DNA of 64,000 nt from a virus (taxonomy: Duplodnaviria > Caudoviricetes), in IMG/VR virus record IMGVR_UViG_2687453341_000003, positions 32,001-96,000 of that record. One strand, written 5' to 3'. The notes below the pieces were generated by a model, which did not search any database, was not told where the DNA came from, and worked only from the letters and a program-made list of their open reading frames with translations. The position numbers were made by a program, and so were the translations under genes. Positions 9,593-58,969 of this stretch are shown in pieces (the first letter of the stretch is position 1; each line of letters starts with the position of its first letter).

Positions 9593-9607
9593 GAACATGA
9601 ACAAGAG

Positions 9608-10201: not shown

Positions 10202-10219
10202 GCCGAAGGCGATGCAATC

Positions 10220-10771: not shown

Positions 10772-10774
10772 CTC

Positions 10775-12166: not shown

Positions 12167-12224
12167 ACTGGTATCCTTCCGTGATGGACTCGTGTTGGAA
12201 ATAGATCTCTAATCTTTGGTGGAA

Positions 12225-12455: not shown

Positions 12456-12536
12456 GAAAATCTCCTTGTAAAAATGGGGCGGAAGTCGCCCGGACCCAAA
12501 AAACAAACTCTGTCTAGTAAGGCTCCTGTTCCCGCG

Positions 12537-12570
12537 GCCCTAGAACGCGTTTTAGGGCGGGGTAGGACCC
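12537..12570 (-). other. Candidate cos/packaging site
   Basis: GGGTCCT (lambda cosQ heptamer) at 12570-12564, followed by the near-perfect dyad GCCCTAAAACGCGTTCTAGGGC; upstream of the MTase-terminase genes. Confidence 0.45.
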
Positions 12571-12742
12571 ATTACTATTCGTTGCACCGAAGCTGCTGAG
12601 TGCCACTTTGGCAGACGCAACGTGGGGGCCACTGTTGGCCCACTGACGCGTTCTCCGGTTGGTTTGGCGTTCCATACGAATGCGGTGCTTCGGTTGCGAC
12701 GTGCGCTAACGTGTGCGATTCGTTGCGATTGCGCTTGGTTAC

Positions 12743-13213: not shown

Positions 13214-13269
13214 ATCGCGGGTACCTTTCGATTTTGGGGTGACTGAGAAATGTGGTTTGAGGCATTCCC

Positions 13270-13607
13270 GGACGTCCGGACGTTTAGGACGTGTTTCCCT
13301 ATACGATCTACATACGGGAAAATACACATACGTTTACCCGTCCAATAACTAACTCCTGACAAACGTCCGGAACGTCCGGAACGTCCTAAACCGCCAATGA
13401 AAATGCTGGGTAAAACGTTAGGACGTTTCGAAATCTTTATGTCCGGGAAATGTCCTAAACGTCCGGAAGTGGACACTGAGCCTCGCATGTGGGAGCAGCG
13501 AAAGTGATCGAACGCCGAACTGCTATCAGCGATTGTGATACTGATCATGAAAACAGCTCCATTTCCCGGACGTTCCCGGACGTTTGATTTTCAACGTCCG
13601 GAAGTCC
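13270..13607. repeat. Iteron-like ACGTCC/GGACGT repeats; candidate replication origin
   Basis: About a dozen copies in both orientations, often 8-10 bp apart (for example 13363, 13372, 13381), at the 3' end of the primase gene. Confidence 0.7.
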
Positions 13608-40769: not shown

Positions 40770-42709
40770 ATCGGGTAGGAGGCGGGATTACTCCCGCCGT
40801 CCTCCCACACCACCGTACGTACGGTTCCGTATACGGCGGTTCAGGTCTAACGACGATTCAGCTCAGTGCCTTTCTGGACGAGGCTTATCAGCCCAAGTTG
40901 CGTGAGGTGGCGAGTAGGCAGGGCCTGATTCATGTGGCTAGCGCCAGCATTCCACCAGGGGCCATGACCATTGCCAGCACAGACCCACGCTCGCACGCGG
41001 TCAATGCCAAGGCGAGTCAGTTCGCGGGCTCGTTTGGGCGGACGCTTCCATTGGCGCCAGTAGATGGCGCGTAACTTCCTGCGTAACCAGCTATCAAGTT
41101 CCTCGAACGTTTTCTTCACTTCACTCTTCCGGTAGTACGACACCCAACCGATCAGGACCGGCTGCAACTGAGCAAGCACCGTACGCACATTGCGACCTCG
41201 TGCCTTGCGGAGTTCCTCGCGTAGGCGACCCTTGAAGCGTTTGACCGATTCAGGAGACACCTTAAACTTCGGTTGGTGATGGTGCGTGAACGTATAGCCC
41301 AGGAACTTGCGGTTCCAGGGGCGGTCCACGGCACTCTTGGCTCGATTCACTGTCAGTCGCAGTTTCTCGCTCAGGAAGCGTTCGACACCATTAAGCACTC
41401 GCTCACCGGCGCGGTGACTGCGAACGTAAATGTTACAGTCATCAGCGTAGCGAACGAATTTGTGGCCTCGGCGTTCCAGCTCCTTGTCCAGCTCATCGAG
41501 CAGGACGTTGGACAGAAGCGGTGATAAGGGACCGCCTTGCGGCGTTCCCTCGCTGCGTGGACTCACGATGCCGCCTTCCATGATGCCAGCTTGCAGATAC
41601 AAGCGGATCAGTTTCAGGATGCGTTTGTCTTGGATCTGACGTGCAAGGCGACTCATCAGGATGTCGTGATTGACGCGATCGAAGAACTTTTCCAAGTCCA
41701 TGTCGACAACCCAGCGATGCCCTGAAGCAATGTGTTCCTTGGCACGATCCAACGCCTGATGCGTACTCCGGCCTGGGCGAAACCCAAAGCTAGAATCCGA
41801 AAACATTGGATCGTAGAGCCTCGTGAGCACTTGCAGTAAAGCTTGCTGGATCAAGCGATCTAGCACTGTCGGTATGCCCAGCATGCGCATCCCTTTGCCA
41901 CCGGGTTTAGGTATTTCTACCTTTCGCACAGGGCTCGGACGATACGTTCCGCTGAACAGTTCTTCCCGGTGGCGTTCCCAATGCTCTCGGCAGTAGCCTG
42001 GCAGTTCATCGACGGTCACCCCATCAACGCCTGCGGCTCCTTTATTACCGACAACACGGCTCAACGCCTGCAACATATTGCTGCGGCTTAGCACCTCCTC
42101 CATCGTGACGGTGACTGAATGTTCAGTGTTCTCATTGCATGCCGGAAGTGTTTGACGCGCGTACGAATTACCCTCAGCGGTTCCGCCGCATACTCTTGTT
42201 CGCCGCTCAGGCTTCTCAGCCGTCATCTCTGCGTCTACCTCACATCACGAATACTTTGCACCAAACGGTTAAACTTGTTCGGCCCTTCGTCAGCTAAAGC
42301 CTCCGACTACTATGGCCTCTGCTGACTTCTACGGTGACATCGTAACCTCTTGCGAGGCAACTAGCTTTGCAGCATCCCCGTAGATCTCTCAGGGTAAGAC
42401 GCGTAACTTTCCTCTCGTATATTCGCCGCATATACGCCGACTCGGTCCGAATGACATTGGGCTTTGAATCTTCGTGCCTTCTCGCCCACCGGGTCGTCGC
42501 CTCGTATACGGTTCGTGTACCTCGAACCGAGAGTTTGCCTGCTGCTTCCTTCAGATTCAGAGTTGCCCCTGACACCCTTGCAGTCGACTAGGAGTTCCTG
42601 TCATCAAGGCCTCCATCGGGACTTGCACCCGACAAGTTACTTCCTGGTTCACTTTCGCTTGCCAGTTGCGAGCGTCAGTCAATGACGCTCCGCGTCATGC
42701 CTGACGCAC
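40770..42709 (-). mobile_element. Group II intron, bacterial class C
   Basis: 5' GTGCG at 42709. Domain V/VI GAACCGCCGTATACGGAACCGTACGTACGGTGGTGTGGGAGG...CCTACCCGAT ends at 40770. Inserted 3 nt after a terminator U-tract. Confidence 0.93.
40847..42226 (-). CDS. ltrA: Group II intron reverse transcriptase/maturase (no endonuclease domain)
   Basis: NKGAAGVDG, RMLGIPTVLDR, GTPQGGPLSPLLSN, RYADD, FLGY, maturase domain. Confidence 0.96.
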   Translation of the reverse strand: MTAEKPERRTRVCGGTAEGNSYARQTLPACNENTEHSVTVTMEEVLSRSNMLQALSRVVGNKGAAGVDGVTVDELPGYCREHWERHREELFSGTYRPSPVRKVEIPKPGGKGMRMLGIPTVLDRLIQQALLQVLTRLYDPMFSDSSFGFRPGRSTHQALDRAKEHIASGHRWVVDMDLEKFFDRVNHDILMSRLARQIQDKRILKLIRLYLQAGIMEGGIVSPRSEGTPQGGPLSPLLSNVLLDELDKELERRGHKFVRYADDCNIYVRSHRAGERVLNGVERFLSEKLRLTVNRAKSAVDRPWNRKFLGYTFTHHHQPKFKVSPESVKRFKGRLREELRKARGRNVRTVLAQLQPVLIGWVSYYRKSEVKKTFEELDSWLRRKLRAIYWRQWKRPPKRARELTRLGIDRVRAWVCAGNGHGPWWNAGASHMNQALPTRHLTQLGLISLVQKGTELNRR

Positions 42710-43344: not shown

Positions 43345-44841
43345 ATGACATTCGATCCCACGTTTCAGTTCTCTGTTGGAGCAACGGAATACTCGAGCGC
43401 GACCGCACCAGGATCTTCCTCCGGATACGACGCTCTCGAACCGAAGGGCCGAAGAAAAGCGCCGCCGGCAACAGTCGTTCGCGAAGACGCCATCGTAAAG
43501 GGCGGAAAGCGAACGAGGCTGCAGGCGAATGCAAACGACATCGCTCGCAACTTCTCCATTGCGGCTTGGGCTGTCCGTCGACATCTCGATTACGTCTCGC
43601 GTTTTACATTCCACGCCCGGTGTAAAGATCGCGGATTGAATCGAGATGTCGAGCAGCTCATCAAGAACCAGTCGCAGGCGAAGAAATGCGATCGCGGTGG
43701 ACGCATGAATCGGGAACGAATGTTCCGTATGGCGGAAGCCAGGCGAGTGCTCGACGGAGACGTCGGATTCATCCTCCTGAACGACCGTCGGATGCAGACC
43801 ATCGAGTCGGATTTGATTCGACAACCCGAGAAGCTGCTCGGTCCACACGAATGGGTTGATGGCATCGAGGCCGATTATGCCGGCGAACCCAAGCAATACT
43901 CTATCTGGGGACGAAGCCGGGGAGGCGTCGGGTATCAATGGCGTCGAAATGTACCGGCCAAAAACTTCATTCACTACGGATTCTTTGAACGATGTGCGAG
44001 CGACCAGTATCGTGGGATTTCCCCAATAGTTTCGAGTCTCAATAACTATCGCGATGTCTACGAGAAGATTGATTACGCGTTGGTGAAGTCGAAGCTCCAG
44101 CAACTCTTCGCGCTCGCGTTGATGCGAGACAAAGATGCAACTTCCCTTGATGGTGCGATGCCGGGAGCAAATGGATCGACGGATGACGAAGATGACGACG
44201 ACAGCAACAACGAGGCACAGCCTCGGACCATCGATTTGACCCACGGTCCAACCGTGCTCGATCTCGACGACGGTGAAAAAGTCGAAGTGATTGAGAGCAA
44301 GAATCCATCGAATGAGTTTCAGAACTTCACGCGACTCGTGATCATGATCGCGTTGAAAGCCCTGGACATCCCGTATTCATTCTTCGACGAGTCCCACACG
44401 AACTACAGCGGATCTCGTACGGGATGGCTTCACTACGAGCGATCGACCCTCGCAAATCGCGATGACCAAGTCGAGATGCGAACCCGATGGACCGATTTTC
44501 AGCTCCAAGGTGCGGTGCTGAATGGTGAGCTCGTGTTGCCATCCCGTATGAGCGTTGAAGACGTCATTTATGAATGGGTCCCACTCGGGATGCCATGGTG
44601 GAAGCCGTCCGAAGAAATCGTAGGGGACCTGAAAGCGATTGCTAGTGGTCTCGATTCCCCAATCAACATCACCAAGAGTCGTGGCACGGGTGACATCTTC
44701 GACAACATCGACGACTTATGCGAAGTGATCGCCTACGCGAACAAGAAGGGTGAAGAGGTTCTTGGTCACGCCCTCCGCCTGAACTTCGATCCCGGTCCAT
44801 TCCCAGCAGCTGTAACCACGGCCAATCAGGATTCCAAATAA
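43345..44841 (+). CDS. Lambda-family portal protein
   Basis: GYDA, DIARN, QYRGISP, TNYSGSR, MPWWKPSEE. Confidence 0.9.
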   Translation: MTFDPTFQFSVGATEYSSATAPGSSSGYDALEPKGRRKAPPATVVREDAIVKGGKRTRLQANANDIARNFSIAAWAVRRHLDYVSRFTFHARCKDRGLNRDVEQLIKNQSQAKKCDRGGRMNRERMFRMAEARRVLDGDVGFILLNDRRMQTIESDLIRQPEKLLGPHEWVDGIEADYAGEPKQYSIWGRSRGGVGYQWRRNVPAKNFIHYGFFERCASDQYRGISPIVSSLNNYRDVYEKIDYALVKSKLQQLFALALMRDKDATSLDGAMPGANGSTDDEDDDDSNNEAQPRTIDLTHGPTVLDLDDGEKVEVIESKNPSNEFQNFTRLVIMIALKALDIPYSFFDESHTNYSGSRTGWLHYERSTLANRDDQVEMRTRWTDFQLQGAVLNGELVLPSRMSVEDVIYEWVPLGMPWWKPSEEIVGDLKAIASGLDSPINITKSRGTGDIFDNIDDLCEVIAYANKKGEEVLGHALRLNFDPGPFPAAVTTANQDSK

Positions 44842-44842
44842 C

Positions 44843-46204
44843 ATGGATGTGCAACTTGCCGTACCACGTGAAGCTATTCCCCACTTTGCATGCTGGGTGG
44901 GCGCGTGGGCGATGTACGAGCCACACTTCAATGCTTTGTATGAGCAGATGCAACGTACCAATTTTACGGTGCACTTTGCTGACCTCGAAGGGCATCGCAA
45001 AGAAGCATTGGAGAGGATTGAGAATTACGAGCCCAACGTTGTGGATGGAATCGCCATCGTGTCCATCGAAGGGCCGATGATGAAACATCAGGCGAGCATG
45101 AGTGACAACGTTTCGACTGTCATCACGCGACGTTCAATCATCTCTCTGGCAAACGATCCGACCGTCCAGGGAATCATGGTGAAGCTCTGCACGCCAGGCG
45201 GGACAGTCCAGGGAACACCAGAACTCGGTGAATCAATTCTATTCGCTCGCGAAAAGAAGCCTGTTTGGGCTTATGGTTGCGACCTGCTGGCTTCCGCCGG
45301 CTATTGGGTCGGCAGCCAGTGTGAAAGGATCGAAACGAATGCGCTTTGCAAGGTCGGATCCATCGGTACGTTGAACGTTGCATTTGATCTATCGGAAAAG
45401 GCGTCAAAGGAAGGGATCAAAGTTCACGTACTCAGTACTGGCCAATTCAAAGGTGCATTTGTACCTGGCGCACCCATCACAGAGGCCCATTTGCTTGAAG
45501 CAAAAAGCCAAATCGAAAAGATCAACGGATTCTTCCTCGAAGCCATTCAGTCAGGACGCGGGTTTGATGCAGAAAAGGCAAAGCAGCTTGCCGACGGCCG
45601 TGTTTGGATTGGAGCCGATGCAGTTGCGCTCGGCTTATCGGACGGTGTGAGCAAGTTCGATGACTACTTCGGGCGTTTTGTAACCCACTGCAATGCTCAG
45701 TCGAACAAGTATCGACGAAGTGACAATCCGCGAATGCAGACGGGGGCTCGATCTTCTACCGTGGGCTCTTCCAATTCATCACGCAATCAACTTTCTGGCA
45801 GCCAAGGCGAAAAGATGTCCGAATCCAATCCAAACCCATCCAATGTTGATGCACGAGCCGAACTACAGGCATATACGTCGCGTTTCGGCCTCGAACTTGG
45901 TGTCGATTTCTTCCAACGAAACGTGTCACTCGCCGACGCGTCTATCGAGTACTCCACCAAGGTGACAGCACAGCACAAAACGGAGCTCGAGCGAGTCAAC
46001 AAGGAACACGCCGAAGCGATCGCTGGGTTAAACACTCAACTCGCCGCGGTCGCCAAAGAGCGTGATGAGTTCAGAGCAAAACTGGAAGCGGCCAAGATCT
46101 CGTTGGGAGAGCCAACAGCGGTCGATACCGGCAAACCGGCTCCAAACGGCGCCCCTGGCAAGTCATTCGGTTCCCTCATTCGTCCTGCAAGTCCAACCAA
46201 ATAA
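44843..46204 (+). CDS. S49 (SppA-like) head maturation protease with C-terminal scaffold-like region
   Basis: TPGGTV, LASAGYWVGS, VGSIGT, ADGRVWIG; coiled-coil tail. Confidence 0.9.
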   Translation: MDVQLAVPREAIPHFACWVGAWAMYEPHFNALYEQMQRTNFTVHFADLEGHRKEALERIENYEPNVVDGIAIVSIEGPMMKHQASMSDNVSTVITRRSIISLANDPTVQGIMVKLCTPGGTVQGTPELGESILFAREKKPVWAYGCDLLASAGYWVGSQCERIETNALCKVGSIGTLNVAFDLSEKASKEGIKVHVLSTGQFKGAFVPGAPITEAHLLEAKSQIEKINGFFLEAIQSGRGFDAEKAKQLADGRVWIGADAVALGLSDGVSKFDDYFGRFVTHCNAQSNKYRRSDNPRMQTGARSSTVGSSNSSRNQLSGSQGEKMSESNPNPSNVDARAELQAYTSRFGLELGVDFFQRNVSLADASIEYSTKVTAQHKTELERVNKEHAEAIAGLNTQLAAVAKERDEFRAKLEAAKISLGEPTAVDTGKPAPNGAPGKSFGSLIRPASPTK

Positions 46205-46266
46205 GCGGTCAACGACTTCGTTGCCTGTCGCCCATTCTCATTTTCGTCTAGGAATCCAACGCAATC

Positions 46267-47211
46267 ATGGCTGATACCCTCATTACCCTCGCGGATGTTG
46301 TCAAGATCAACGATGTATCGGTCCGTGATATGGGTGCAACGGACATCTTCAACGATGCTCCCCTCCTTGCAGCTCTTCATGCGATCACTGCATCAAACGG
46401 AACCGTCCACAGTTACCTCAAAGAAGCAACTGCCCCTGTCGTAGGTTTCCGCGCGGCGAACACGGGCTTGGATGTTACCAGTTCGACCGATACCAAAGTC
46501 GATCTCGCCCTGCACTACTTGGACGCTCGGGTCACGATGGACAAAATGCTCGCCGATTCCGGCAAGGGTCGCGACTACCATCTTGAACGGCAATCGAAGC
46601 GTAACCTACGCCAAGGCCTCTTCGTCGCTGAAAACCAAATCATTAACGGCGGTACGGCTAATGGTACGGCGTTCAATGGTTTCCTGCAGGCTCTAAATGC
46701 ACTCGCCAACCCTATGGTAGTGAATGCGGCAGGGGCTGCAGCTCGGAGTAGCGTGTACGCGATCCGCTGCACTCCCGACGAAGCGAATGTCTGCGTGATC
46801 ATGGGGAACGATGGCGAAATCAAGATTGACCCATACTTCGAGTCTCTGCAAACCGATGGGACTGGTAAGGCATTCGTTGGCTACACCGTTCCAATCGCAG
46901 GCTGGATTGGCCTCCAGGTCGGTGCGGCAAAGTCAATCGCCCGCCTCGCTAACATTCCGGCTTCTGGTACAGGTTCGGTAACCGATGTGCTTCTCCAAAG
47001 CCTGTTCGATTTGTTCCCATCGAGTGCCCCACCCACGCACTTCGTAATGAACCGTCGATCCAGGGGCCAACTCCAGGCCTCGCGTGCGACGGTGAACGTG
47101 GGAGGAAACAGCAAGTTGATCACCAAGCACGCCCCCATTCCTACCGACTGGGAAGGAATTCCAATCGTCTGTGTGGAGTCAATTGGTAACGCCGAAACGG
47201 CTGTTGCTTAA
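46267..47211 (+). CDS. Major capsid protein
   Basis: 314 aa after the protease; P.VGFRAAN, FNG, PTHFVMNRR, GIPIVCVESI. Confidence 0.8.
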   Translation: MADTLITLADVVKINDVSVRDMGATDIFNDAPLLAALHAITASNGTVHSYLKEATAPVVGFRAANTGLDVTSSTDTKVDLALHYLDARVTMDKMLADSGKGRDYHLERQSKRNLRQGLFVAENQIINGGTANGTAFNGFLQALNALANPMVVNAAGAAARSSVYAIRCTPDEANVCVIMGNDGEIKIDPYFESLQTDGTGKAFVGYTVPIAGWIGLQVGAAKSIARLANIPASGTGSVTDVLLQSLFDLFPSSAPPTHFVMNRRSRGQLQASRATVNVGGNSKLITKHAPIPTDWEGIPIVCVESIGNAETAVA

Positions 47212-47247
47212 TTCCCTGGAGCAAGCTCGATCGAGGATTGATTCGCG

Positions 47248-47622
47248 ATGACCGTTTTGGGGCGATTGATACCCGCAACCTTTCGCACCTTGCAGAGACT
47301 CAACGGCGTCGCTGTTCGCTACCACTACAACGACGAACAATTCATCCCGATCGAGCTTGCAGTCCGGACAAAACCAAAGCCGCAGCGACAAGACATCGTC
47401 GATGGGATTGGTTTCGATTCATTGCGATGGGATTGGCTGATTGCCCCTGAGTGTTTAGTTGATGGAAACGGTGCACCGATCGTTCCGACGGTAGGACACC
47501 GAATTGAGCGACTTTGCGACAAGCTCATTCACGTAGTCGTTCGCGATCCGCGTGAGAATTGCTGGCGCTGGTCGGATGATAGCCATACTTGGCGACGCGT
47601 TTACACCGAGGAGCTTTCCTGA
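47248..47622 (+). CDS. Putative head-closure/head-tail protein
   Basis: Position after the capsid; C-terminal WRWSD...RRVYT. Confidence 0.65.
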   Translation: MTVLGRLIPATFRTLQRLNGVAVRYHYNDEQFIPIELAVRTKPKPQRQDIVDGIGFDSLRWDWLIAPECLVDGNGAPIVPTVGHRIERLCDKLIHVVVRDPRENCWRWSDDSHTWRRVYTEELS

Positions 47623-48641: not shown

Positions 48642-49004
48642 ATGTGCAAGTCCTCCGAGCCCGCCGGATATATTGGCCACTACCTGGCCCTGATTATGCG
48701 GCAGGGCTCGGACTTTGTATTGAGAATCATCCTCACGGAAGAGGACGGTGAGACACCTTTTGATGCGACCGGTTTTACCGCTCGGGCGCATATGTCGAAT
48801 GGTAAGACTCGAACTGCGATCGCCGCCAATTTTGAACCGGGCGGTGTCTTAGTTCTTTCCAAGCCGGCGAGTGAAACAACATTGTTGAAGGCGGGATCTC
48901 TGAGCGACTCACTCGGCTCGTATGAATGGGATTGCGAATTCCTGCATGGGCAAGAAGTCGTTCCAGCGTTCTACGGACCGGTTACCGTTGTGAAGGATAT
49001 CTGA
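48642..49004 (+). CDS. Ig-like virion adaptor protein
   Basis: RQGSDF, PFDATGFTARA, YEWD, FYGPVTV pattern. Confidence 0.6.
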   Translation: MCKSSEPAGYIGHYLALIMRQGSDFVLRIILTEEDGETPFDATGFTARAHMSNGKTRTAIAANFEPGGVLVLSKPASETTLLKAGSLSDSLGSYEWDCEFLHGQEVVPAFYGPVTVVKDI

Positions 49005-49006
49005 CC

Positions 49007-51139
49007 GTGAGTTCGTTCAAGTTCGCTGTTCAATCTACTCCAACGTACAACGCGGTGGTCGTGCGTGGCCCCAAGGGCGACAAGGGAGACGAAGGTGCAT
49101 CGGGCACAAGTGAAATTGGTGCGCAAACTGCCACGGACTTGACCGGTCTCCTGTACGGTAACGGTAGTACGGTTTCGTCGCTCTCTGCAGCGTCCGGTCG
49201 CGATTTTCTCGAGGTCCTGTCCCAGTCCGAAACGCAATCAGCGATCACGGCCGCTCTCGCTGCATACACTCCGACGGCGAACCTCGCACCCATCGCTACC
49301 TCGGGCAGCGCATCCGATCTCATCACCGGTACGCTCGCTAACGCTCGGCTCTCGCCCCAGGTTGTCCGCAGCGACTTCTCTTACTCGGATCCTGCGTGGA
49401 TAAGTGCGATCGCAGCATCGAAGCTAACCGGGTTCGTCGATGATGCTCGTTTGTCTGGTAATGTCGCGTTAAAAAACGGGAGCAATGTATTTTCGGCGGG
49501 TAATACGTTCCAGGCCTCGCAGGTCTTTGACGCGTCAATCGTTGTCGGTGGGGTGACGGGTCCGAGGATCCGTGCAGTGAGTGGGGTTTTCCGGTTGAAC
49601 AACAACGCGGATTCAGCGCGGGCTGGTCTCGAAATATCTGATCTTACGGCGACAGGCAACGCGTCGATCACGGGTACATTGCAGATCGGCGGAGCGGGAG
49701 CCCATTTGCTCCGTTGGAACTCTGGCGCATCGTCATTAGAAGTACGAGACTCCTCGAATTCCTTCTACAGAAAAATGCGATTCGGAGAGCTCCAAGCGAT
49801 CGCCGATCTCGGCGGTAGCTTTGCAACCCCCGCGAATGCACGCATCGGATTGCTGACCCAAATTGGGGGATACATTGCTGGGGCAATCTCTGGCAGGACC
49901 TATTCCAGTAATGCGATTCACGGGGATGTCATCATCTCGGCATCCGTGAACATGACCACGGGTCAAAACGACTACTCGGGCTTAACCGATGACCTCGCGA
50001 TTCGCGGCAACACGGGCAACGTGGAAATCAATCGAGGTCTCCTTGGGATTGGAATGGCGGGCCAATCAGCTCGCTCAGTCTCGATCCTTCCCGTAAACAC
50101 AGGCGATCGAACCGGCGTGCGAGTCTATGACTATGGGGCATTCGCGAGTGCGGTTTCGCAAACGGGATTCGATGTCGCGTACCTCGGAGGAACGCTGTCC
50201 GCCCCGGCGACTCCGGTATCAGGGCACTACCGAAACATTCTTAGCTTCAAGACTGGCGGGACCAACGGTTTGGTATCTGGGTCGCCGTCCTTTGCAATCC
50301 GCAGCACCATCGGAAGCGTGATTGGCTCGTCGCTTTGCGAAGTAAACACCTCGTTCATGGTGACTCCTACCATCACGGGCGTGACAACTGCCGTCCAAAC
50401 GATCTTTGGACAGTCAGGCCTAGTTGATTTCCCAATCGGGCAAATCCAACTCGGTACCAATGTTCGCCTTAAGAACAACGCAGGCTCGCTCCAAGCACGC
50501 AACAGCGGGGACTCCGCATTCGCGAATCTCGAAGCGGCCGTCATCACCTCGGCGTTCCAAACCCTTGCGGGCGATCCGAGCACGCTTGATATTGCTACTG
50601 GCTTAGGGCGTCTCGTTAAGAACACTCTCACAAACGAGATCGCCAAGTTCATCAACGATGCTGGCGTGATTCGAAGGATCACCACGAGCCCGCCCTGGTC
50701 GTCGATCCTCAGCAAACCAACAACGCTCGCGGGATACGGGATTACCGATGCTGTCGCTTCGAACGATGCGCGCATCACCAATGGAGCCATAACATTCCTG
50801 ATCGATGGGGGAGGCTCTGTGATCGCAGTCGGTGAAAAGTCGCTCCTCTTCCGCGTGCCTTACAACTGCACAATCACCGGCTGGGAGCTCGTCGCGAACG
50901 CATCCGGATCGATCGTAATAGACGTCTGGAAGGACTCGTACGCGAACTTCCCACCGACGAACGGGGATTCGATCGTCGCGGCCGCAAAGCCCACGCTCGC
51001 CTCCCAGGTCAAGGCTCAATCGTCGACGCTGACCGGATGGACCACCGCATTGAACGCTGGGGACTACATCAAGCTCGAAGTCGAATCAGCATCGACCGTA
51101 AATGTCGCGGTACTCACTCTCACGGTGACGAGGACATAG
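49007..51139 (+). CDS. Tail fibre protein
   Basis: Short collagen GPKGDKGDEG, G/S/T/A-rich, three related RL..SG.L..RN..DS repeats, KPTTLAGYGITDA fibre motif; GTG start at 49007. Confidence 0.8.
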   Translation: MSSFKFAVQSTPTYNAVVVRGPKGDKGDEGASGTSEIGAQTATDLTGLLYGNGSTVSSLSAASGRDFLEVLSQSETQSAITAALAAYTPTANLAPIATSGSASDLITGTLANARLSPQVVRSDFSYSDPAWISAIAASKLTGFVDDARLSGNVALKNGSNVFSAGNTFQASQVFDASIVVGGVTGPRIRAVSGVFRLNNNADSARAGLEISDLTATGNASITGTLQIGGAGAHLLRWNSGASSLEVRDSSNSFYRKMRFGELQAIADLGGSFATPANARIGLLTQIGGYIAGAISGRTYSSNAIHGDVIISASVNMTTGQNDYSGLTDDLAIRGNTGNVEINRGLLGIGMAGQSARSVSILPVNTGDRTGVRVYDYGAFASAVSQTGFDVAYLGGTLSAPATPVSGHYRNILSFKTGGTNGLVSGSPSFAIRSTIGSVIGSSLCEVNTSFMVTPTITGVTTAVQTIFGQSGLVDFPIGQIQLGTNVRLKNNAGSLQARNSGDSAFANLEAAVITSAFQTLAGDPSTLDIATGLGRLVKNTLTNEIAKFINDAGVIRRITTSPPWSSILSKPTTLAGYGITDAVASNDARITNGAITFLIDGGGSVIAVGEKSLLFRVPYNCTITGWELVANASGSIVIDVWKDSYANFPPTNGDSIVAAAKPTLASQVKAQSSTLTGWTTALNAGDYIKLEVESASTVNVAVLTLTVTRT

Positions 51140-53663: not shown

Positions 53664-54098
53664 TCACTTGCACCGATACCTTCTCCAAAATCGGCCGCAG
53701 CTCCACACGCTGCGGCCGATTCGTTTTGATACAGAATTGTGTGCACGATGCGACCACCAAAAGAACTCGATTCGAGAATGAAACCTCGGTGGATCCAGTT
53801 CCTTAAATCCGGCCCAATGCCGTCGGCAGGCGCCGCACGGAATCGATATCGATTCCCACATCCGATACCACGCTTCGATATCGGCCCATGTCTGCAGTCG
53901 AAACGCGACTCGATGAAGTGGCACCCACCCAACGTCAAAAACGTGATCCTGCAGGAGCGGAGCCGGAACCGCGATCGATGGTTGAGTGGGCGCGGAGTCC
54001 AATTGCGATGGGTACAAACTGGCGAATTCACTCGGAGTGATTTCCCCACGCAACAACCGCAGCACCGGGTTTACAACCGAGAAAACTGGATCGTCCAT
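53664..54098 (-). CDS. Erv1/ALR-family FAD-linked sulfhydryl oxidase
   Basis: GWVPLH, IPCGACRRHW, PPRFHSR, FFWWSHRAHNSVSKRIGR in Erv/ALR order and spacing. Confidence 0.82.
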   Translation of the reverse strand: MDDPVFSVVNPVLRLLRGEITPSEFASLYPSQLDSAPTQPSIAVPAPLLQDHVFDVGWVPLHRVAFRLQTWADIEAWYRMWESISIPCGACRRHWAGFKELDPPRFHSRIEFFWWSHRAHNSVSKRIGRSVWSCGRFWRRYRCK

Positions 54099-55273
54099 GT
54101 GCCGAGGTCCAATGGTGCAATGACTGGATCCGGAGAGCTACCGTCCATGGTTTCTTCTACAAATCGGTAGCTAGTTTGGCAATGTCGATACGCTCGATTG
54201 AAGCCGGATCCACCGGGCGGTGTAGGAGTAATCGGTGTGCAGTCGCTATAGGGCGATGCTCCTAATGTGTCTGTGAGGAAAGCAGGGCATGTGCTGGTAA
54301 CGGTCGTGTCTGAAGAAGACCAACTGACAGGGGATGTAATCGTAGGAGCAGCATCGGACCCATAGCTCGGAATGGAACACTTTGTCCCGCATGAGTCAGT
54401 GAATGCTGAGATCGGAAGAACATCGCTGGGGAGAAAATCGAAGTCTTTACAGAAGGACTTCGCGAATGCGTAAGTGGTACCAAAGCCGGGTGTGAGCGTG
54501 TCCTCGGAAATCCACGGCATCATACCGGCATTTGCATTCACTCCACTAAACCACGGGCCTATCCCAAAACAGGCAGTGCCGTATTCGGTTGGGTCACATG
54601 GCGTGGGAACATTGAAACTGGCCGATTCCCATCCCGTCAATCCGTTCACTGTCTCGAAGTGGCACCCTGTATTGGGGCGACCATCGTTTGTCTTGTTGAG
54701 AATTCGAGTCTCGACGAAGTGGGTGCCGTAGATGGTGAATGCAATACGCACCTTGCAAATGCCACCTACGATGATTGGGTGCACGGTAACGCGGTACTGA
54801 TTTAGCGTGAAATGATAGAACCAGGCCAACGCCTTCGAAATGGTGATGAATGTCGTGTAGGTCCATTTATCGACGGGAGTGTAAGCACCTCCTGTAATTC
54901 GATCCTGCTGGGAAACGTTCCAAGTCTCCAAACGACGGTTGCGGTAATGCTTCCAGTAGCCCCATTGGTAATAGGGTCCATACCCAGCCAAAGCTGGGAG
55001 ACTGAATTGTGCAGCTCCGCAACATGTCTTGGTATTCCCCATGGTCCCGGACACGGTCCACTGCGATCGCAAGGAGTTGGTGATCGCAATCGAAACTTGC
55101 CCCCATCGGGGTACTCGGCACTTTCCAGCATGGCCACCGCATGGAACGCATCCGCCGGTACCGACGAGCTCCGCGTCGCACCACAAACATTGATGGGGAA
55201 CTTCCAACGGAGCATAGCTACCTGGTGGAGTTTCCCCGATCGGTCCCCCGATTGGTTCTAATGTTTCAGTCAT
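54071..55273 (-). CDS. Cys-rich putative tail-tip/receptor protein
   Basis: 400 aa with 17 Cys, T/G/S/P-rich, third gene after the tape measure. Confidence 0.7.
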   Translation of the reverse strand: MTETLEPIGGPIGETPPGSYAPLEVPHQCLWCDAELVGTGGCVPCGGHAGKCRVPRWGQVSIAITNSLRSQWTVSGTMGNTKTCCGAAQFSLPALAGYGPYYQWGYWKHYRNRRLETWNVSQQDRITGGAYTPVDKWTYTTFITISKALAWFYHFTLNQYRVTVHPIIVGGICKVRIAFTIYGTHFVETRILNKTNDGRPNTGCHFETVNGLTGWESASFNVPTPCDPTEYGTACFGIGPWFSGVNANAGMMPWISEDTLTPGFGTTYAFAKSFCKDFDFLPSDVLPISAFTDSCGTKCSIPSYGSDAAPTITSPVSWSSSDTTVTSTCPAFLTDTLGASPYSDCTPITPTPPGGSGFNRAYRHCQTSYRFVEETMDGSSPDPVIAPLDLGTWTIQFSRL

Positions 55274-55289
55274 CCTTTTCCTTTCCGCG

Positions 55290-56024
55290 TTACTCGATGC
55301 ACCATGGAACCGTGATGACGAATCGATTACCCAACCACATTGCGATTCCTTGGTCTCCGATCAGCTGCAGTGCGGCGCATCCGTATGAATCGACAACGAA
55401 CGCATTGGGCCCGAGCGACAGTTGTGCGTTTGTCGCGGCGGGTGGCACCTGGCGGTTCTGCGTCAGCGTGTAGGTTAGGAAGTTGCTGACACAGTTGAGA
55501 TCGCACAAAGCGAATCCGTTTCCGAGATCCGCAATCTTCCGCGCGAACCCAAACCCGGAGCTCACGGCCGCAGAGTCTTGGTAGCTGGCCGTTTTAACTC
55601 GAGGGAGAACAAACCCGGCTCCTGAGTCACACTTAATCTCGACCGTTCCGGATACCGCAACGTCGCCAAATGCGTTGGCCTCGATTGCATCTCCCACCAC
55701 AACTCCAACGTTGAAGAGTGAGCTCGCTAGTTCGTTTGCTTCGGTGATATTGATGGGTAGGTAACATGGATGCACATTCAACCATCCGTTGCGACTATTC
55801 CCCCATCCCGTTCCCTCGCCCGTATAAGTCCCCAGAATCACGGGACTACCTGGCTGCAAGGTGTAGGTGCAGTTGTTCTTGGCAACGACCGATACAAAAC
55901 GGTGGGAAGTTCGACCGCTGATCGCCCGTGCACCCGCTTGTTCACCCTGGATCGCCAGAAGGCGATTGAACGCCCTGGCGGAGACATCGTTGATCCTCGA
56001 ACCCTTCTTAAGCCGAGATTGCAT
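55290..56024 (-). CDS. Putative tail protein
   Basis: VSARAFNRL N-terminus, DAIEANAFGDVAVSG, ends PWCIE; 7 Cys. Confidence 0.7.
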   Translation of the reverse strand: MQSRLKKGSRINDVSARAFNRLLAIQGEQAGARAISGRTSHRFVSVVAKNNCTYTLQPGSPVILGTYTGEGTGWGNSRNGWLNVHPCYLPINITEANELASSLFNVGVVVGDAIEANAFGDVAVSGTVEIKCDSGAGFVLPRVKTASYQDSAAVSSGFGFARKIADLGNGFALCDLNCVSNFLTYTLTQNRQVPPAATNAQLSLGPNAFVVDSYGCAALQLIGDQGIAMWLGNRFVITVPWCIE

Positions 56025-56025
56025 T

Positions 56026-56880
56026 TCAAAGCCCCAGTAAGGTCGGTGCGAACTCGTCGTAGACACGTTCGACATATGCCCACTTCGGGCGTCTCACGCG
56101 GCTGCCGCTCACTACGTTGTGCTCGTACTTCACCCAGACGTAGTCATGCCCCTTTTTGGCAATGCCCGATATGGCTCCGATCGCATAGGACGCGATGTTC
56201 TGCGATGCCGCGAAATGGTACTCCACCTCGTTGTCTTTGTAGGGAACGTACTCACCACTCGCCCCCAAGAAGAGCAGTTCACCAGCACCGAAAGTTTGCC
56301 AGGGAACCGAATTGGTTCTGCCGGTGTAGGCTGCCATGGCCTTCATATAGTCGATAAAGGACGTTGGGCCGAACAGCGTGCTGTTCTTGTTCCACCTCTT
56401 CCGAACGCTGAGTTTGAGTGCGGGAAGAATGATCTCCACGCCTTGTGCTTCGTTCTCGTCGTTGACGTCAATGGAGCCCTGATGGTCCGGAGCTCCTGCA
56501 GGATAACGCTGGGTTGCCCGAGAGGTGAAAACCTTCACTGTCCCCCCCTGGGTATCAAACGACCACCGATAAATCGATTCGCTGATCTCGGCAGTCCGGT
56601 AATTCACATCGAAGATGAATCGCTTTGTGTCGTCATCTTCTCGCCATGAGATCTTGCCTCGATAAAGGGTCTGAACGTCGCTACTGGAACTCGGAGTCTG
56701 TACATAAAAGCCCGGTACATTGCTTCGCAAATGGTTCAAGCAATTCGGGAAGTACTGCTCGTCGTTCCTTTCGGCTGGAGTATTCGCCCAAACCTCCCAC
56801 GAGAGATTCATTTCATCATCCGCACCACGGTCCGTCGCGCTACCCGTGGCACCGCAAAGCATTTTGATTCGAAACGCCAT
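56026..56880 (-). CDS. Putative distal tail/hub protein
   Basis: Directly after the tape measure; FGAGELLFLGASG, KKGHDYVWV. Confidence 0.75.
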   Translation of the reverse strand: MAFRIKMLCGATGSATDRGADDEMNLSWEVWANTPAERNDEQYFPNCLNHLRSNVPGFYVQTPSSSSDVQTLYRGKISWREDDDTKRFIFDVNYRTAEISESIYRWSFDTQGGTVKVFTSRATQRYPAGAPDHQGSIDVNDENEAQGVEIILPALKLSVRKRWNKNSTLFGPTSFIDYMKAMAAYTGRTNSVPWQTFGAGELLFLGASGEYVPYKDNEVEYHFAASQNIASYAIGAISGIAKKGHDYVWVKYEHNVVSGSRVRRPKWAYVERVYDEFAPTLLGL

Positions 56881-56884: not shown

Positions 56885-58969
56885 CTAATCCTTCATCCCT
56901 TCGCGTTCCTCACGCTTCTTTTCTTTCGCGATCTTCACGAGTTCCCCGGTGTTCTTCGCCGTGGATTCCATCGCGGTATTCCTGCCTAATCCGGATAGCA
57001 TCGAACCGAGTGCTGAGAACGTTCCGGAATTCGGTGCACCACCCTTTACCGCACCCGTTGCTCCTGCAAGGAGTGCCTGCGGGCCTCCCGCCATTTGCTC
57101 TGCGCTCGCTTCTTTTCTCTCTCGTTCCGCATTGGCGGCATTGAGTGCGTTGTTAAGAGCTTCCTGGGCCTGCCGGGCCTTATCTCCGAGAGTATTCAAA
57201 CCTTGCTCGGCTGCCGCTTGGTTGGCCTCTTGTTGGTATTGATTCAACTCGTCTTGCAGCTTCTTCTCCGCAGCGGCTCGTTGGCCCATATTGCTAAGGT
57301 TCGCGGCGTCACGTCGTCTCATGCTGGCGTTGTAGGCCTTGTCATCTTCTCGTTGGGCTTGGGCCTGCATTTCCGAGAGGACATTTCCGATCCCTTGACC
57401 GTTGAAGCTTTCTCGAACTGTATTGAAGAGGTCTTTCTTACCGATGTACTCAAAGATGGGTTCGAGGTAGCCGAGCAAATCATAGAACCGTTGGCCAATC
57501 CAAACGATGGATTGTGCGATGCCAAACACCATCGTGCGAAAGGCAGTGCGCATCCCCCACACGATGCCATCCCAAACCGTCCCCATACCGGTAGCTGCCA
57601 TGTCCCAAAAGAACTTGATTCCATTCCACGCCTTCAAGACCGTCAAACGAACGTTGCCCATGGCGATGGCTGCCATCAGGTCCCATCGCCCTGCGAGAAT
57701 TGCTTTACCGATGGAGCCAGTCGCTTCCCATACCCCACCGAGCAACGAATCGAGAGCAGTCCAAGCGAGAGCTTGAAACCCAGCCCAAGCGATCGCGGCA
57801 GCACCTTCAATATCGCCGGATCGCATCGCGGCCACGATTCCGTTGAAAGTACTTGTAAAGATCCCCCATAGAACCATTAGTGCGTCAATCGCAGGCTGGA
57901 TAAATGCGATCAGCGGAGCCAATAGGATGGCCAACTCGGACCGAAACGAATAGGCGGCGACAGCCAGCCCCACGAGGATGCCGATGAGAATTCCCATCGG
58001 GCTCAGAACAAATGCGGCCACGGCAACCAGTGACCCGATTGCGGAGCCAATCAGCCCGACAGCGAACGATGCTCCCATGATGACAGCACCGAGCCCCATG
58101 AATGCCCCCGCAACCGAGACGACCACGAGAGCCACGGTACCAATCGTTTGGAACAACTCCCCATTCTTCTCCACGAAGTTGGTGATGACCTTCGAAAGCG
58201 TGATTCCAATCTGGGTGAATGTCTTCAGCGTTGGGAGCATTGCATTGCCAAGTGCCCGAGCAACGATCGCGGCATTATCCATCAACGTGGAGAACAACCC
58301 GGTGAGTGTCGCGGACTGCTTCTGCATCATCCCATTGAACCGACCACCGGGCCCGGAAGCGGAAGCAAAAGCCGTGGCGAGCATTCGAGAGGAGATTTGA
58401 CCTGCTTCCATTTCCTCGGAAAGCTTGGCCATAGATTTGCCAGTGATCCGCGAAATCTCCTGAAGTGGATTGAAACCGGCTTCAATCATCTGATTGACTT
58501 CCTGGCCCATCAGACGACCTTTACCCATGACTTGGCCAAATGCGAGAGCGAGGCGGGAAAAACGCTCGGCATCTCCTCCCGATACATCTCCGAGATTCCT
58601 AAGCGTTGGTAACAGGGCGTCGGCGCTCACCCCAAAATTGAGCAACGTTTGTGCACCGTCTTTGAGTTGGTCGAATGTGAATGGGGTTTCAGCCCCCAAC
58701 TGCTCGATCTCTTTGAGCTTCTTCTCAGCGAGGTTTGCATCGCCGAGGAACACCGCAAAGGATGTCTTCGTTTGCTCCATGTTGGCAGCGAGCTTGATGG
58801 GCCATGCGAGCGCAGCCCCCATCCCGGCGCCAATGACACCGCCACTCGTTGCCATCATGGTACCGAACTGTCGTAGTCGTTTCTCAGCTACTTTGAGGCC
58901 CTGCTGCATGCGGTCTCGAATACTCAAGAGGACGTGAGCTCTACCCGCTTCTATGTCTTTGGCTGCCAT
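56885..58969 (-). CDS. Tape measure protein
   Basis: IEAGRAHV, ETPF, AFGQVMGKGRLMGQEVNQ, hydrophobic core, Ala/Gln-rich helices. Confidence 0.93.
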   Translation of the reverse strand: MAAKDIEAGRAHVLLSIRDRMQQGLKVAEKRLRQFGTMMATSGGVIGAGMGAALAWPIKLAANMEQTKTSFAVFLGDANLAEKKLKEIEQLGAETPFTFDQLKDGAQTLLNFGVSADALLPTLRNLGDVSGGDAERFSRLALAFGQVMGKGRLMGQEVNQMIEAGFNPLQEISRITGKSMAKLSEEMEAGQISSRMLATAFASASGPGGRFNGMMQKQSATLTGLFSTLMDNAAIVARALGNAMLPTLKTFTQIGITLSKVITNFVEKNGELFQTIGTVALVVVSVAGAFMGLGAVIMGASFAVGLIGSAIGSLVAVAAFVLSPMGILIGILVGLAVAAYSFRSELAILLAPLIAFIQPAIDALMVLWGIFTSTFNGIVAAMRSGDIEGAAAIAWAGFQALAWTALDSLLGGVWEATGSIGKAILAGRWDLMAAIAMGNVRLTVLKAWNGIKFFWDMAATGMGTVWDGIVWGMRTAFRTMVFGIAQSIVWIGQRFYDLLGYLEPIFEYIGKKDLFNTVRESFNGQGIGNVLSEMQAQAQREDDKAYNASMRRRDAANLSNMGQRAAAEKKLQDELNQYQQEANQAAAEQGLNTLGDKARQAQEALNNALNAANAERERKEASAEQMAGGPQALLAGATGAVKGGAPNSGTFSALGSMLSGLGRNTAMESTAKNTGELVKIAKEKKREEREGMKD

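What the first reader, a model, noticed from the sequence alone, without database searches (positions are those of the whole stretch)
53664..56024. Prophage-encoded Erv1/ALR sulfhydryl oxidase coupled to Cys-rich tail proteins: a possible phage disulfide-formation system
Seen: the last gene of the tape-measure operon carries the Erv/ALR signature in order (GWxxLH, PCxxCxxHW, PPxxxSR, WxxxxHNxVxxRxG). It overlaps the 3' end of a 400-aa gene with 17 Cys, which follows a 7-Cys gene. No signal peptide is evident. Established: Erv/ALR FAD oxidases are eukaryotic and are used by large eukaryotic DNA viruses (vaccinia E10R, ASFV B119L, baculovirus Ac92) for virion disulfides; bacteria use periplasmic DsbA/B and keep the cytoplasm reducing. 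Inference: this tailed phage brings its own oxidase to form disulfides in tail-tip proteins during cytoplasmic assembly. I know of no characterised phage example, but cannot check the literature here.
Basis: partly seen in the sequence, partly recalled or inferred. Interest (0 to 1): 0.9.

Follow-up and report, generated by a model that had tools for sequence, protein, structure and literature searches.

The report
Prophage Erv oxidase with cysteine-rich partner
A prophage in a planctomycete-like genome ends its tail operon with a small Erv-type flavin enzyme gene overlapping a cysteine-packed protein gene, a pairing kept in many uncultured tailed phages, so these phages probably make their own disulfide bonds inside the cell.

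Summary
Observation confirmed. Window 53664-54098 (-) encodes a 144-aa protein that passes Pfam Evr1_Alr (36.6 bits, cut-off 27.6). With an alignment it folds (pLDDT 84.5) into the Erv/ALR helical bundle. It overlaps by 28 nt a 400-aa, 17-Cys gene at the end of the tape-measure operon.

The linkage is not chance. All three Erv genes of this genome follow a ~400-aa protein ranking 9th, 10th and 13th of 2863 long ORFs for Cys content. The pair recurs in other viral contigs. In a motif scan of IMG/VR, 12 of 12 assessable Cys-x-Cys-type Erv loci had a 21-45-Cys gene directly upstream, against 1 of 43 Cys-x-x-Cys-type loci, mostly low-GC and giant-virus-like by my labelling.

Caveats:
- One close relative keeps all 17 Cys but has a degenerate Erv partner.
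- The first four Cys look like a zinc ribbon.
- The "7-Cys gene" is not conserved in Cys.
- FAD binding, oxidase activity, disulfides and tail location are all untested.

No phage Erv appears in 50,697 phage records or PHROGs. A 2026 paper says no such machinery is described in phages. This scan noted the same theme earlier on other DNA.

The parts
53664..54098 (-). Erv/ALR-type sulfhydryl oxidase gene (144 aa). Residues 1-56 are an N-terminal extension. Residues 58-141 are the helical flavin-domain core, with C88-x-x-C91 at the start of helix 3.
   Evidence: Pfam PF04777, 36.6 bits > 27.6. AF2 with a 98-sequence alignment: pLDDT 84.5, with ten-residue blocks 61-140 at 93-98. Foldseek ranks 1-24 in PDB are all Erv/ALR chains. 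Clade profile against PDB: best hit ASFV pB119L 3gwl, 2e-10.
54071..54098 (-). 28-nt overlap between the end of the 400-aa gene and the start of the Erv gene (probable translational coupling).
   Evidence: Coordinates. Relatives show the same kind of overlap or abutment. Coordinates are; start codons were chosen from P0005 and P0158. My arithmetic gives 22 nt (L004), 34 nt (L007), 25 nt (L025) and 1 nt (L017).
54071..55273 (-). 400-aa protein with 17 Cys (4.25%). It has an N-terminal CxxC-x9-CxxC-x6-C cluster (C29-C52) and 12 scattered Cys. It is the presumed substrate or partner; a tail-module role is inferred from position.
   Evidence: It ranks 13th of 2863 ORFs of >=300 aa for Cys fraction. 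All 17 Cys are invariant in P0152 (89%) and P0153 (56%) and in L025 (17 of 17 aligned). No Pfam or PHROG match.
55290..56075 (-). 261-aa protein (probably 244 aa from the ATG at 56024), 7 Cys, function unknown.
   Evidence: Homologue L025:3262-3990 is 34% identical (BLASTP E 1.9e-35). Only 2 Cys are aligned. No Pfam or PHROG family.
56026..56880 (-). 284-aa protein directly after the tape measure gene, function unknown (position of a distal tail protein).
   Evidence: Homologue L025:2370-3260 (33%, E 1.4e-30). No family match above cut-off.
56885..58969 (-). Tail length tape measure protein (694 aa, 0 Cys in its relatives), first recognisable gene of the operon.
   Evidence: PF20155 3.1e-31; phrog_9959 5.5e-42. 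It is 41-49% identical over about 200 aa to the tape measure proteins of IMG/VR phages L086, L105 and L070, which also carry a Cys-rich gene plus Erv.

Best explanation
The last gene of the prophage's tape-measure operon encodes a compact Erv-family flavin sulfhydryl oxidase. It has a single FAD-proximal Cys88-x-x-Cys91 pair, no conserved shuttle disulfide and no export signal. It is translated together with the overlapping upstream gene for a 400-aa, 17-Cys protein of the tail module. During late gene expression in the cytoplasm, the oxidase most likely takes electrons from cysteine pairs of that protein, passes them through CxxC and FAD to oxygen, and so installs structural disulfides before or during tail assembly. 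This is the same logic as the Erv oxidases of large eukaryotic DNA viruses. Shown here: the family and fold assignment, the operon structure, and the repeated, non-random pairing with Cys-rich genes in tailed phages. Inferred: FAD binding, oxidase activity, that the 400-aa protein is the substrate and a virion tail component, and that its Cys form disulfides.
For: (1) Identity. Pfam Evr1_Alr is above the curated cut-off. phmmer against PDB gave 15 sequences at E<=1, of which 14 are Erv/ALR. The clade profile gave 13 of 13 PDB matches at E<=1e-3 in Erv/ALR, best ASFV pB119L at 2e-10. The AF2 model has pLDDT 84.5, with C88/C91 at the start of helix 89-101. Foldseek ranks 1-24 in PDB are all Erv/ALR (prob 1.00, target TM 0.55-0.70, rmsd 2.4-3.2 over about 90 columns for most). 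BFVD top hits are sulfhydryl oxidases of large DNA viruses. W58, H62, C88, C91, H94, W115, H120 and N121 are invariant in the 7-sequence clade alignment.
(2) Linkage in this genome. All 3 PF04777 matches lie after a tape measure gene, two small genes and a ~400-aa Cys-rich gene. Those three partners rank 9th, 10th and 13th of 2863 ORFs of >=300 aa for Cys fraction (median 1.16%, 99th percentile 3.7%).
(3) Linkage elsewhere. Metagenome UViGs L007/L009 carry a 413-aa 17-Cys gene followed by Erv. Pirellulaceae bacterium SH501 (L010) carries a 411-aa 18-Cys gene followed by Erv. Between the three lineages, only Erv (all three) and the Cys-rich gene (two of them) are detectably shared by BLASTP. 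Searching from the Cys-rich side, 5 of 5 IMG/VR loci have an Erv homologue next.
(4) Independent scan. A back-translated WxxxxHNxVNxxLGK pattern hit >=120 stretches, and 80 loci were fetched. A Cys-rich ORF (>=15 Cys, >=4%) ended <=700 nt upstream on the same strand in 12 of 12 assessable CxC-type loci, 1 of 43 CxxC-type loci (mostly low-GC) and 2 of 15 loci with neither motif found. Three of three ~700-aa upstream ORFs tested are tape measure proteins of the same PHROG as the window's.
(5) Sporadic distribution fits a mobile, phage-borne gene. PF04777 matched in 4 of 201 genomes of the family (2 over the cut-off), and the clade profile matched in 1 of 401 genomes of the phylum sample.
(6) Precedent that an Erv oxidase works in a bacterial cytoplasm: PMC3022669 (search listing only: title and start of abstract).
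Against: L025 (IMG/VR): its 396-aa protein is 56% identical to the window's and keeps 17 of 17 Cys. Its overlapping 141-aa Erv homologue (27% identity, E 7e-16) reads WRELF for WxxLH, FCSC for PCxxC and KS for HN, and has no Pfam Erv match. So the Cys are kept without a canonical oxidase.
C29/C32/C42/C45 are spaced like a zinc ribbon, so some Cys are probably metal ligands (sequence; the zinc-ribbon reading is my recall).
The window's 400-aa protein shows no significant similarity to the L004/L007 partner family (BLASTP E 0.04 and 0.018; hhalign probability 0.3%). 'Same partner' therefore rests on size, position and Cys content.
No usable structure of the 400-aa protein exists (Atlas model pLDDT 0.30), so no Cys-pair geometry could be checked.
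Foldseek E-values are modest (best 1.8e-3, none <=1e-3).
The C-terminal CX16C structural disulfide of cellular Erv is absent: S116 aligns with the first Cys of AtErv1. C143 is not conserved.
No thioredoxin-like relay protein was recognised in the operon.
The tail role is positional only.
Confidence: 0.6

Rival explanations
1. The Erv-fold protein is mainly a dedicated folding or assembly chaperone, or a structural partner, of the upstream Cys-rich protein (like tail-fibre assembly proteins encoded after fibre genes). Flavin redox chemistry would be dispensable or lost in some lineages.
For: The L025 homologue has lost H62, H120-N121 and CxxC, yet keeps its position, its overlap and its N-terminal segment, while its partner keeps all 17 Cys. 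The N-terminal 56 residues are shared between the window, P0002, P0004 and L025 and could be a docking segment. The gene sits at the chaperone-like position after a fast-evolving tail gene.
Against: In the window protein and in 6 of 6 closest relatives, the CxxC and every flavin-site motif residue is invariant. This is hard to explain without catalysis. The partner is always extreme in Cys, which a generic chaperone would not require. No similarity to known assembly chaperones was found.
Confidence: 0.13
2. The many Cys of the 400-aa protein are metal ligands (Zn or Fe-S, as recalled for the lambda gpL tail-tip protein). The Erv protein would then serve metal-centre maturation or redox control rather than structural disulfides.
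For: The CxxC-x9-CxxC-x6-C cluster at residues 29-52. Other partners have poly-Cys N-termini such as CCxCC. Total Cys conservation fits ligands as well as disulfides.
Against: Twelve of the 17 Cys are scattered singly over 280 residues, not in ligand-like clusters. Partners elsewhere carry 21-45 Cys, far more than known metal sites need. The Erv family's established chemistry is dithiol oxidation (PMC3509050, Introduction passages read).
Confidence: 0.1
3. The oxidase acts on the host rather than on the phage's own protein. For example, it might rearrange disulfides of the cysteine-rich planctomycete envelope at entry or lysis, or serve as a lysogenic-conversion gene at the operon end.
For: The gene lies at the end of an operon, a common site for accessory genes. 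The host appears to be a Pirellulaceae-type planctomycete (the nearest named relative of the module is L010), a group recalled to have Cys/Pro-rich envelope proteins. First-stage notes report an unusual peptidase-based lysis cassette nearby (not tested here).
Against: There is no signal peptide or membrane segment. The overlap with the Cys-rich gene is strict in every lineage. The gene is absent from nearly all related genomes, so it is not a host trait.
Confidence: 0.07

Closest known systems
ASFV pB119L (PDB 3GWL) and other compact Erv oxidases of large eukaryotic DNA viruses (vaccinia E10R and baculovirus Ac92 are named from recall and from PMC3509050/PMC10598087 passages)
   Same: Same fold and the same single FAD-proximal CxxC. 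The protein is small, with no conserved shuttle disulfide and no C-terminal CX16C pair. It is virus-encoded, expressed without an export signal, and presumed to oxidise virion proteins in the cytoplasm. It is the best PDB match of the clade profile (2e-10) and has target TM 0.70, rmsd 2.4.
   Different: Identity is only 22% in the Foldseek row for 3gwl_B. The host is a bacterium and the virus is a tailed prophage. The gene overlaps one dedicated Cys-rich gene of a tape-measure operon. No thioredoxin-like relay partner was recognised. It has a 56-residue N-terminal extension of its own. In a weak tree it falls on the opposite side from the low-GC, giant-virus-like IMG/VR sequences (FastTree, 108 columns).
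Cellular Erv1/ALR/Erv2 (PDB 2HJ3, 1OQC, 1JR8/1JRA, 4E0H)
   Same: Member of the same Pfam family, with the same helical bundle and motif residues W..LH, PCxxC..H and HN.V.
   Different: It lacks the flexible shuttle Cys pair and the CX16C structural disulfide (S116 in place of the first Cys). It is not in a mitochondrial or ER setting, and no Mia40 or PDI-type partner is evident.
Uncultured tailed phages with a Cys-x-Cys-type Erv after a 21-45-Cys tail-module gene (IMG/VR loci L051, L053, L058, L070, L074, L080, L082, L085, L086, L099, L104, L105)
   Same: Same operon logic: tape measure protein (same PHROG, 41-49% identical to the window's), then a ~285-aa gene, then a Cys-rich gene, then an overlapping Erv. 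Same half of the Erv tree.
   Different: Their active site reads CxC rather than CxxC. Their partners are richer in Cys (5.2-9.1% against 4.25%). Some Erv genes are longer fusions (327 and 354 aa). The window's clade is a separate, small branch (7 rows, support 97). These phages are undescribed in the literature I searched.
Phage virion disulfides without a phage oxidase (Qbeta, Agrobacterium phage Milano, Bacteroides phage PD491P1, siphovirus NBD2 tail tube)
   Same: These phage structural proteins are stabilised by disulfides (PMC13576161, Introduction and Discussion passages read).
   Different: [quoted passage not shown] Here the phage carries its own candidate oxidase.

Membership tests
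Erv/ALR sulfhydryl oxidases (Pfam PF04777) | Sequence matches the family model above the curated cut-off | tested here: met
   36.6 bits against 27.6, E 5.9e-9, covering profile positions 4-93 of 93. Relatives score 32.2-38.9 bits.
Erv/ALR sulfhydryl oxidases (Pfam PF04777) | Helical-bundle FAD-binding fold | tested here: met
   AF2 model pLDDT 84.5, with helices at 58-67, 71-85, 89-101, 109-127 and 134-141. Foldseek ranks 1-24 in PDB are all Erv/ALR at prob 1.00. E-values are only 1.8e-3 to 7e-2.
Erv/ALR sulfhydryl oxidases (Pfam PF04777) | Active-site Cys-x-x-Cys at the start of helix 3, next to the flavin | tested here: met
   C88-G-A-C91, immediately before and in helix 89-101. It aligns with the CxxC of AtErv1, Erv2, Erv1 and pB119L.
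Erv/ALR sulfhydryl oxidases (Pfam PF04777) | Conserved flavin-site residues (W..LH on helix 1, H after CxxC, W....HN.V on helix 4) | tested here: met
   W58, H62, H94, W115, H120, N121 and V123 are present and invariant in the clade, and aligned with the same residues of pB119L and AtErv1. Which residues touch FAD is from recall.
Erv/ALR sulfhydryl oxidases (Pfam PF04777) | Binds FAD and oxidises dithiols with O2 | not testable with these tools
   Needs purified protein (flavin spectrum, oxygen consumption).
Erv/ALR sulfhydryl oxidases (Pfam PF04777) | Second, shuttle Cys pair on a flexible segment (typical of cellular members, not of many viral ones) | tested here: not met
   C134 and C143 exist, but C143 is missing in P0002, P0155 and the others. 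PMC3509050 says many viral Erv enzymes lack a shuttle disulfide, so this does not exclude membership.
Erv/ALR sulfhydryl oxidases (Pfam PF04777) | Homodimer | not tested
Virus-encoded cytoplasmic disulfide pathway (poxvirus/ASFV type) | Virus-encoded Erv oxidase without an export signal | tested here: met
   Prophage context. No hydrophobic N-terminus or membrane segment.
Virus-encoded cytoplasmic disulfide pathway (poxvirus/ASFV type) | Thioredoxin-like relay proteins between oxidase and substrates | tested here: not met
   No thioredoxin or glutaredoxin family hit among the 8 + 10 neighbouring proteins scanned. The rest of the prophage was not scanned.
Virus-encoded cytoplasmic disulfide pathway (poxvirus/ASFV type) | Disulfide-bonded virion proteins as substrates | tested here: inconclusive
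   The partner is extremely Cys-rich, its Cys are invariant, and it is always adjacent. Neither virion location nor disulfides were shown.

The most novel reading that the evidence does not exclude
A widespread but undescribed group of tailed phages, many apparently of planctomycetes, runs its own two-gene cytoplasmic disulfide system. It consists of an Erv-fold flavin oxidase (CxxC or CxC type) translationally coupled to one fast-evolving, cysteine-packed tail or receptor-binding protein. This would be the first virus-encoded de novo disulfide catalyst in the prokaryotic virosphere. It would also be a separate branch of the Erv family that may bear on where the giant-virus and eukaryotic Erv enzymes came from.
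Probability: 0.5. Interest if true: 0.85.

Novelty: new variant of a known kind. Interest (0 to 1): 0.75.

Why it matters
Textbook bacterial disulfide formation is periplasmic (DsbA/DsbB), and phage tails assemble in the reducing cytoplasm. [quoted passage not shown] A phage-borne Erv oxidase tied to a cysteine-packed tail gene would explain how some phages build disulfide-rich virion parts. It would extend a strategy known from giant eukaryotic viruses to bacterial viruses. It would also offer compact oxidases, with natural substrates, for making disulfide proteins in bacterial cytoplasm. The hypothesis is directly testable with two small genes.

Tried and rejected
Single-sequence AF2 gave a useless model (pLDDT 43.9); it was replaced by the run with alignment A1.

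The ESM Atlas gave nothing usable for the 400-aa protein: its own model has pLDDT 0.30, there was no feature hit, and structure rows had TM <0.3.

BLASTP and hhalign did not link the window's 400-aa protein to the L004/L007 partner family. I do not claim homology. I saw by eye a similar C-terminal ending (W-T/S-I/V-x-F/I/L) and N-terminal Cys clusters.

Single-protein scans of viral contigs with P0011 and P0018 found nothing.

The listing of cluster members gave no names or accession numbers for the 10 proteins asked, so the origin of most of the 399 representatives is unknown.

The G153 locus (L017) has a divergent Erv-like 173-aa ORF (25 bits, below the cut-off) right after a 425-aa, 16-Cys ORF. 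Its neighbours have no PHROG match, and only an Ig-like domain hit and the sub-cut-off Erv hit in Pfam. It is kept only as a lead.

G038 and G060 matches (22-23 bits, inside 756- and 905-aa frames) were not examined and are probably spurious.

L007:4971-5915 (314 aa, 18 Cys) looks like a spurious low-complexity ORF and was not counted.

My first neighbour filter wrongly dropped five overlapping Cys-rich ORFs. This was corrected after inspection.

RNA evidence: no RNA holder listed; read laying was not used.

The tree is FastTree on 108 columns with a midpoint root, and is used only descriptively. Rows left out were L104 (near-copy of L053) and representatives beyond P0060 or of 260 aa or more.

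Supplementary files of papers were not consulted.
Full report
WHAT IS THERE. On the minus strand the window carries a tight operon:
- a tape measure protein, 56885-58969 (PF20155 3.1e-31; phrog_9959 5.5e-42);
- a 284-aa ORF, 56026-56880;
- a 261-aa ORF, 55290-56075, probably starting at the ATG at 56024;
- a 400-aa ORF, 54071-55273, with 17 Cys;
- overlapping it by 28 nt, a 144-aa ORF, 53664-54098.
The operon converges on a plus-strand block with a lambda-family portal, S49 protease, GP7-type capsid protein and head-tail joining protein (43345-47622). A gpA-type large terminase lies just beyond the right end of the window. This is a tailed prophage. The window is G000:C1:1457417-1521416 of a 6.53-Mb single-contig genome.

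THE ERV GENE IS REAL. The 144-aa protein matches Pfam Evr1_Alr at 36.6 bits (cut-off 27.6, E 5.9e-9) over profile positions 4-93 of 93.
- phmmer against PDB gave 15 sequences at E<=1, of which 14 are Erv1/Erv2/ALR/pB119L (best AtErv1 2hj3, 5.9e-5).
- A profile of the seven closest sequences gave 13 of 13 PDB matches at E<=1e-3 in the family, best ASFV pB119L 3gwl at 2e-10.
- Alone the protein folded badly (pLDDT 43.9). With a 98-row alignment the model reached pLDDT 84.5, with ten-residue blocks 61-140 at 93-98 and five helices.
- Foldseek found no PDB match at E<=1e-3, but ranks 1-24 are all Erv/ALR chains at probability 1.00 (best 1.8e-3; pB119L target TM 0.70, rmsd 2.4). The viral library returned sulfhydryl oxidases of large DNA viruses.
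- C88-x-x-C91 sits at the start of helix 3. W58, H62, H94, W115, H120, N121 and V123 are invariant in the clade.
- The CX16C structural pair of cellular Erv proteins is absent (S116 aligns with the first Cys of AtErv1). C143 is not conserved, so there is no conserved shuttle pair. A paper on mimivirus R596 says this compact form is common among viral Erv enzymes (PMC3509050, passages read).
- Neither this protein nor the 400-aa protein has a hydrophobic N-terminus or membrane segment by a crude hydropathy scan.

THE PAIRING WITH A CYS-RICH GENE IS NOT CHANCE. The genome has three PF04777 matches, all over the cut-off. The other two lie in two nearly identical prophages (L004, L005). There the order is tape measure protein, a 277/305-aa gene, a 106-aa gene, a 396-aa gene with 18 Cys, and an overlapping 131-136-aa Erv gene.

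Among 2863 ATG-ORFs of >=300 aa in the genome, the median Cys fraction is 1.16% and the 99th percentile is 3.7%. The three Erv partners rank 9th, 10th and 13th.

The window's Erv is 52% identical to the L004 Erv over 85 residues. The two partners show no significant similarity.

Elsewhere:
- IMG/VR contigs L007/L009 (one phage; 3 differences in 11,374 positions) carry a 413-aa 17-Cys gene (41% identical to L004's) followed by an overlapping Erv.
- Pirellulaceae bacterium SH501 (L010) carries the L004-type module.
- An all-against-all BLASTP of the modules found only Erv (three lineages) and the Cys-rich gene (two lineages) shared between them.
- Searching from the Cys-rich side, 4 of 4 loci for the L004 family and 1 of 1 for the window's family have an Erv homologue next.
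- In 201 genomes of the same family, neither partner family was found outside the own genome.

A WIDER, INDEPENDENT TEST. I scanned IMG/VR for DNA that could encode WxxxxHNxVNxxLGK, a motif the window's own protein does not match. I classed each Erv frame by its active-site motif. I then asked whether an ORF of >=150 aa with >=15 Cys and >=4% Cys ends within 700 nt upstream on the same strand. "Assessable" means at least 1200 nt of upstream sequence in the locus.

| Active-site class | Loci | Assessable | With Cys-rich upstream ORF |
|---|---|---|---|
| CxC | 14 | 12 | 12 (21-45 Cys, 291-493 aa) |
| CxxC (mostly low-GC) | 51 | 43 | 1 |
| Neither motif found | 15 | 15 | 2 |

The 15 positive loci form 14 clusters at 90% Erv identity. 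Calling the low-GC loci giant-virus-like is my reading from GC content and GVMAG contig names; it was not tested.

Of four large upstream ORFs (481-751 aa) scanned in positive loci, the three of ~700 aa (L086, L105, L070) are tape measure proteins of the same PHROG as the window's; the 481-aa ORF of L074 had no match. Those three are 41-49% identical to the window's over about 200 residues.

A FastTree of 135 Erv rows (108 columns, midpoint root, weak) puts three sets on one side (63 rows, support 94): the window clade (7 rows, support 97), most metagenome representatives, and all loci with Cys-rich neighbours. The low-GC IMG/VR sequences fall on the other side.

EVIDENCE AGAINST A SIMPLE READING.
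- L025 (IMG/VR) carries the window's module: 296-, 242- and 396-aa homologues. The 396-aa protein is 56% identical, with 17 of 17 Cys aligned.
- Its overlapping 141-aa gene is a clear homologue of the window's Erv (27% identity over the full length, E 7e-16). But it reads WRELF, FCSC and KS where the window has WVPLH, PCGAC and HN, and has no Pfam Erv match. Canonical flavin chemistry is thus not needed to keep those Cys in at least one lineage.
- C29/C32/C42/C45 of the 400-aa protein are spaced like a zinc ribbon.
- Only 2 of the 7 Cys of the 261-aa protein are conserved.
- The 400-aa protein has no family, no usable model and only two close relatives among 5.8 billion proteins. Its tail role is therefore positional.

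DISTRIBUTION AND NOVELTY. The gene is sporadic:
- PF04777 matched in 4 of 201 genomes of the family (2 over the cut-off).
- The clade profile matched in 1 of 401 genomes sampled from the phylum, the own genome only.
- The exhaustive representative search gave 399 relatives at E<=1e-3 but only 6 at <=1e-10.
- No PHROG family matched.
- tblastn of three Erv queries against 50,697 phage records found only a giant virus filed among the phages.

Literature searches found no phage Erv. The term sets were: sulfhydryl oxidase + Erv + bacteriophage; Erv1 + bacterial + prokaryot; PF04777/Evr1_Alr; sulfhydryl oxidase + phage + Planctomycet; sulfhydryl oxidase + tail fiber + phage; FAD-linked sulfhydryl oxidase + prophage.
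- PMC10598087 notes PF04777 in a few bacterial groups, including Pirellula (passages read).
- Within this scan the theme has been noted before on other DNA: 30 findings in at least 27 genomes. Those notes agree with my results, but I did not use them as evidence.

VERDICT. The best explanation is a phage-encoded Erv-type oxidase, translationally coupled to a dedicated cysteine-rich tail-module protein, that makes its disulfides in the cytoplasm (confidence about 0.6). The fold and the linkage are shown. Catalysis, the substrate and virion location are inferred. It is a new variant of a known kind: the Erv-based viral disulfide pathway, here in tailed phages of bacteria.

Noticed in passing
L004 (G000:C1:5098000-5117999) 5115-10102 and L005 (G000:C1:4133000-4152999) 9763-14752: Two further, nearly identical prophage tail modules in the same genome. 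Each has a tape measure protein, a 277/305-aa gene, a 106-aa gene, a 396-aa 18-Cys gene and an overlapping Erv gene. IMG/VR holds matching viral contigs (L006, L008).
   Followed up: yes
L025:5143-5568 (+): A degenerate Erv homologue (H62->F, CxxC->CxC, HN->KS, no Pfam hit) sits beside a partner that keeps all 17 Cys. This may be a catalytically dead or re-purposed member.
   Followed up: partly
L051, L053, L058, L070, L074, L080, L082, L085, L086, L099, L104, L105; also P0007, P0009, P0018: A large phage-type branch of Erv proteins has Cys-x-Cys instead of Cys-x-x-Cys at the active site, with an intact HNxVNxxLGK. Some are longer fusions (L086 354 aa, L070 327 aa).
   Followed up: partly
L004:8538-9728, L007:6694-7935, L086:2876-4243, L105:1567-2961, window 54071-55273: The Cys-rich partners share, by eye, an N-terminal poly-Cys cluster (for example CCxCC within the first 12 residues) and a similar C-terminal ending (W-T/S-I/V-x-F/I/L) in the stretch that overlaps the Erv start. 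This hints at remote common ancestry that BLASTP and hhalign did not detect.
   Followed up: no
L086:786-1802 (-); similar 333-342-aa ORFs after Erv in L105, L074, L070: A metallophosphoesterase-like gene (phrog_221, 5.7e-37) directly follows the Erv gene in L086. ORFs of similar size follow it in three other CxC-type phages but were not scanned.
   Followed up: no
L017 (G153:C3:225000-243000) 8614-10412 (-): A divergent Erv-like 173-aa ORF, with an N-terminal zinc-ribbon-like CxxC...CxxC and a CxC site (25 bits, below the Pfam cut-off), abuts a 425-aa 16-Cys ORF. The neighbouring large ORFs have 6-14 Cys and no PHROG match.
   Followed up: partly
window 40847-42226 (-): A group II intron reverse transcriptase/maturase (RVT_1 4.6e-43, GIIM 5.9e-20) lies just left of the portal gene.
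   Followed up: no
window 43345-44841 (+) and L026:4121-6340 (+): The portal gene lies at the left of the structural block, and the gpA-type large terminase lies about 20 kb to its right, beyond the convergent tail operon and a lysis-like block. This is an unusual order for a lambda-type packaging module. A DNA methylase, DUF5131 and HTH genes follow the terminase.
   Followed up: partly
window 48926-51139 (+): The C-terminal 125 residues of this 737-aa protein match phrog_35197 and phrog_10330 (virion structural protein). A 383-aa protein with weak beta-helix matches follows. These are candidate fibre or spike genes on the strand opposite the tape measure operon.
   Followed up: no
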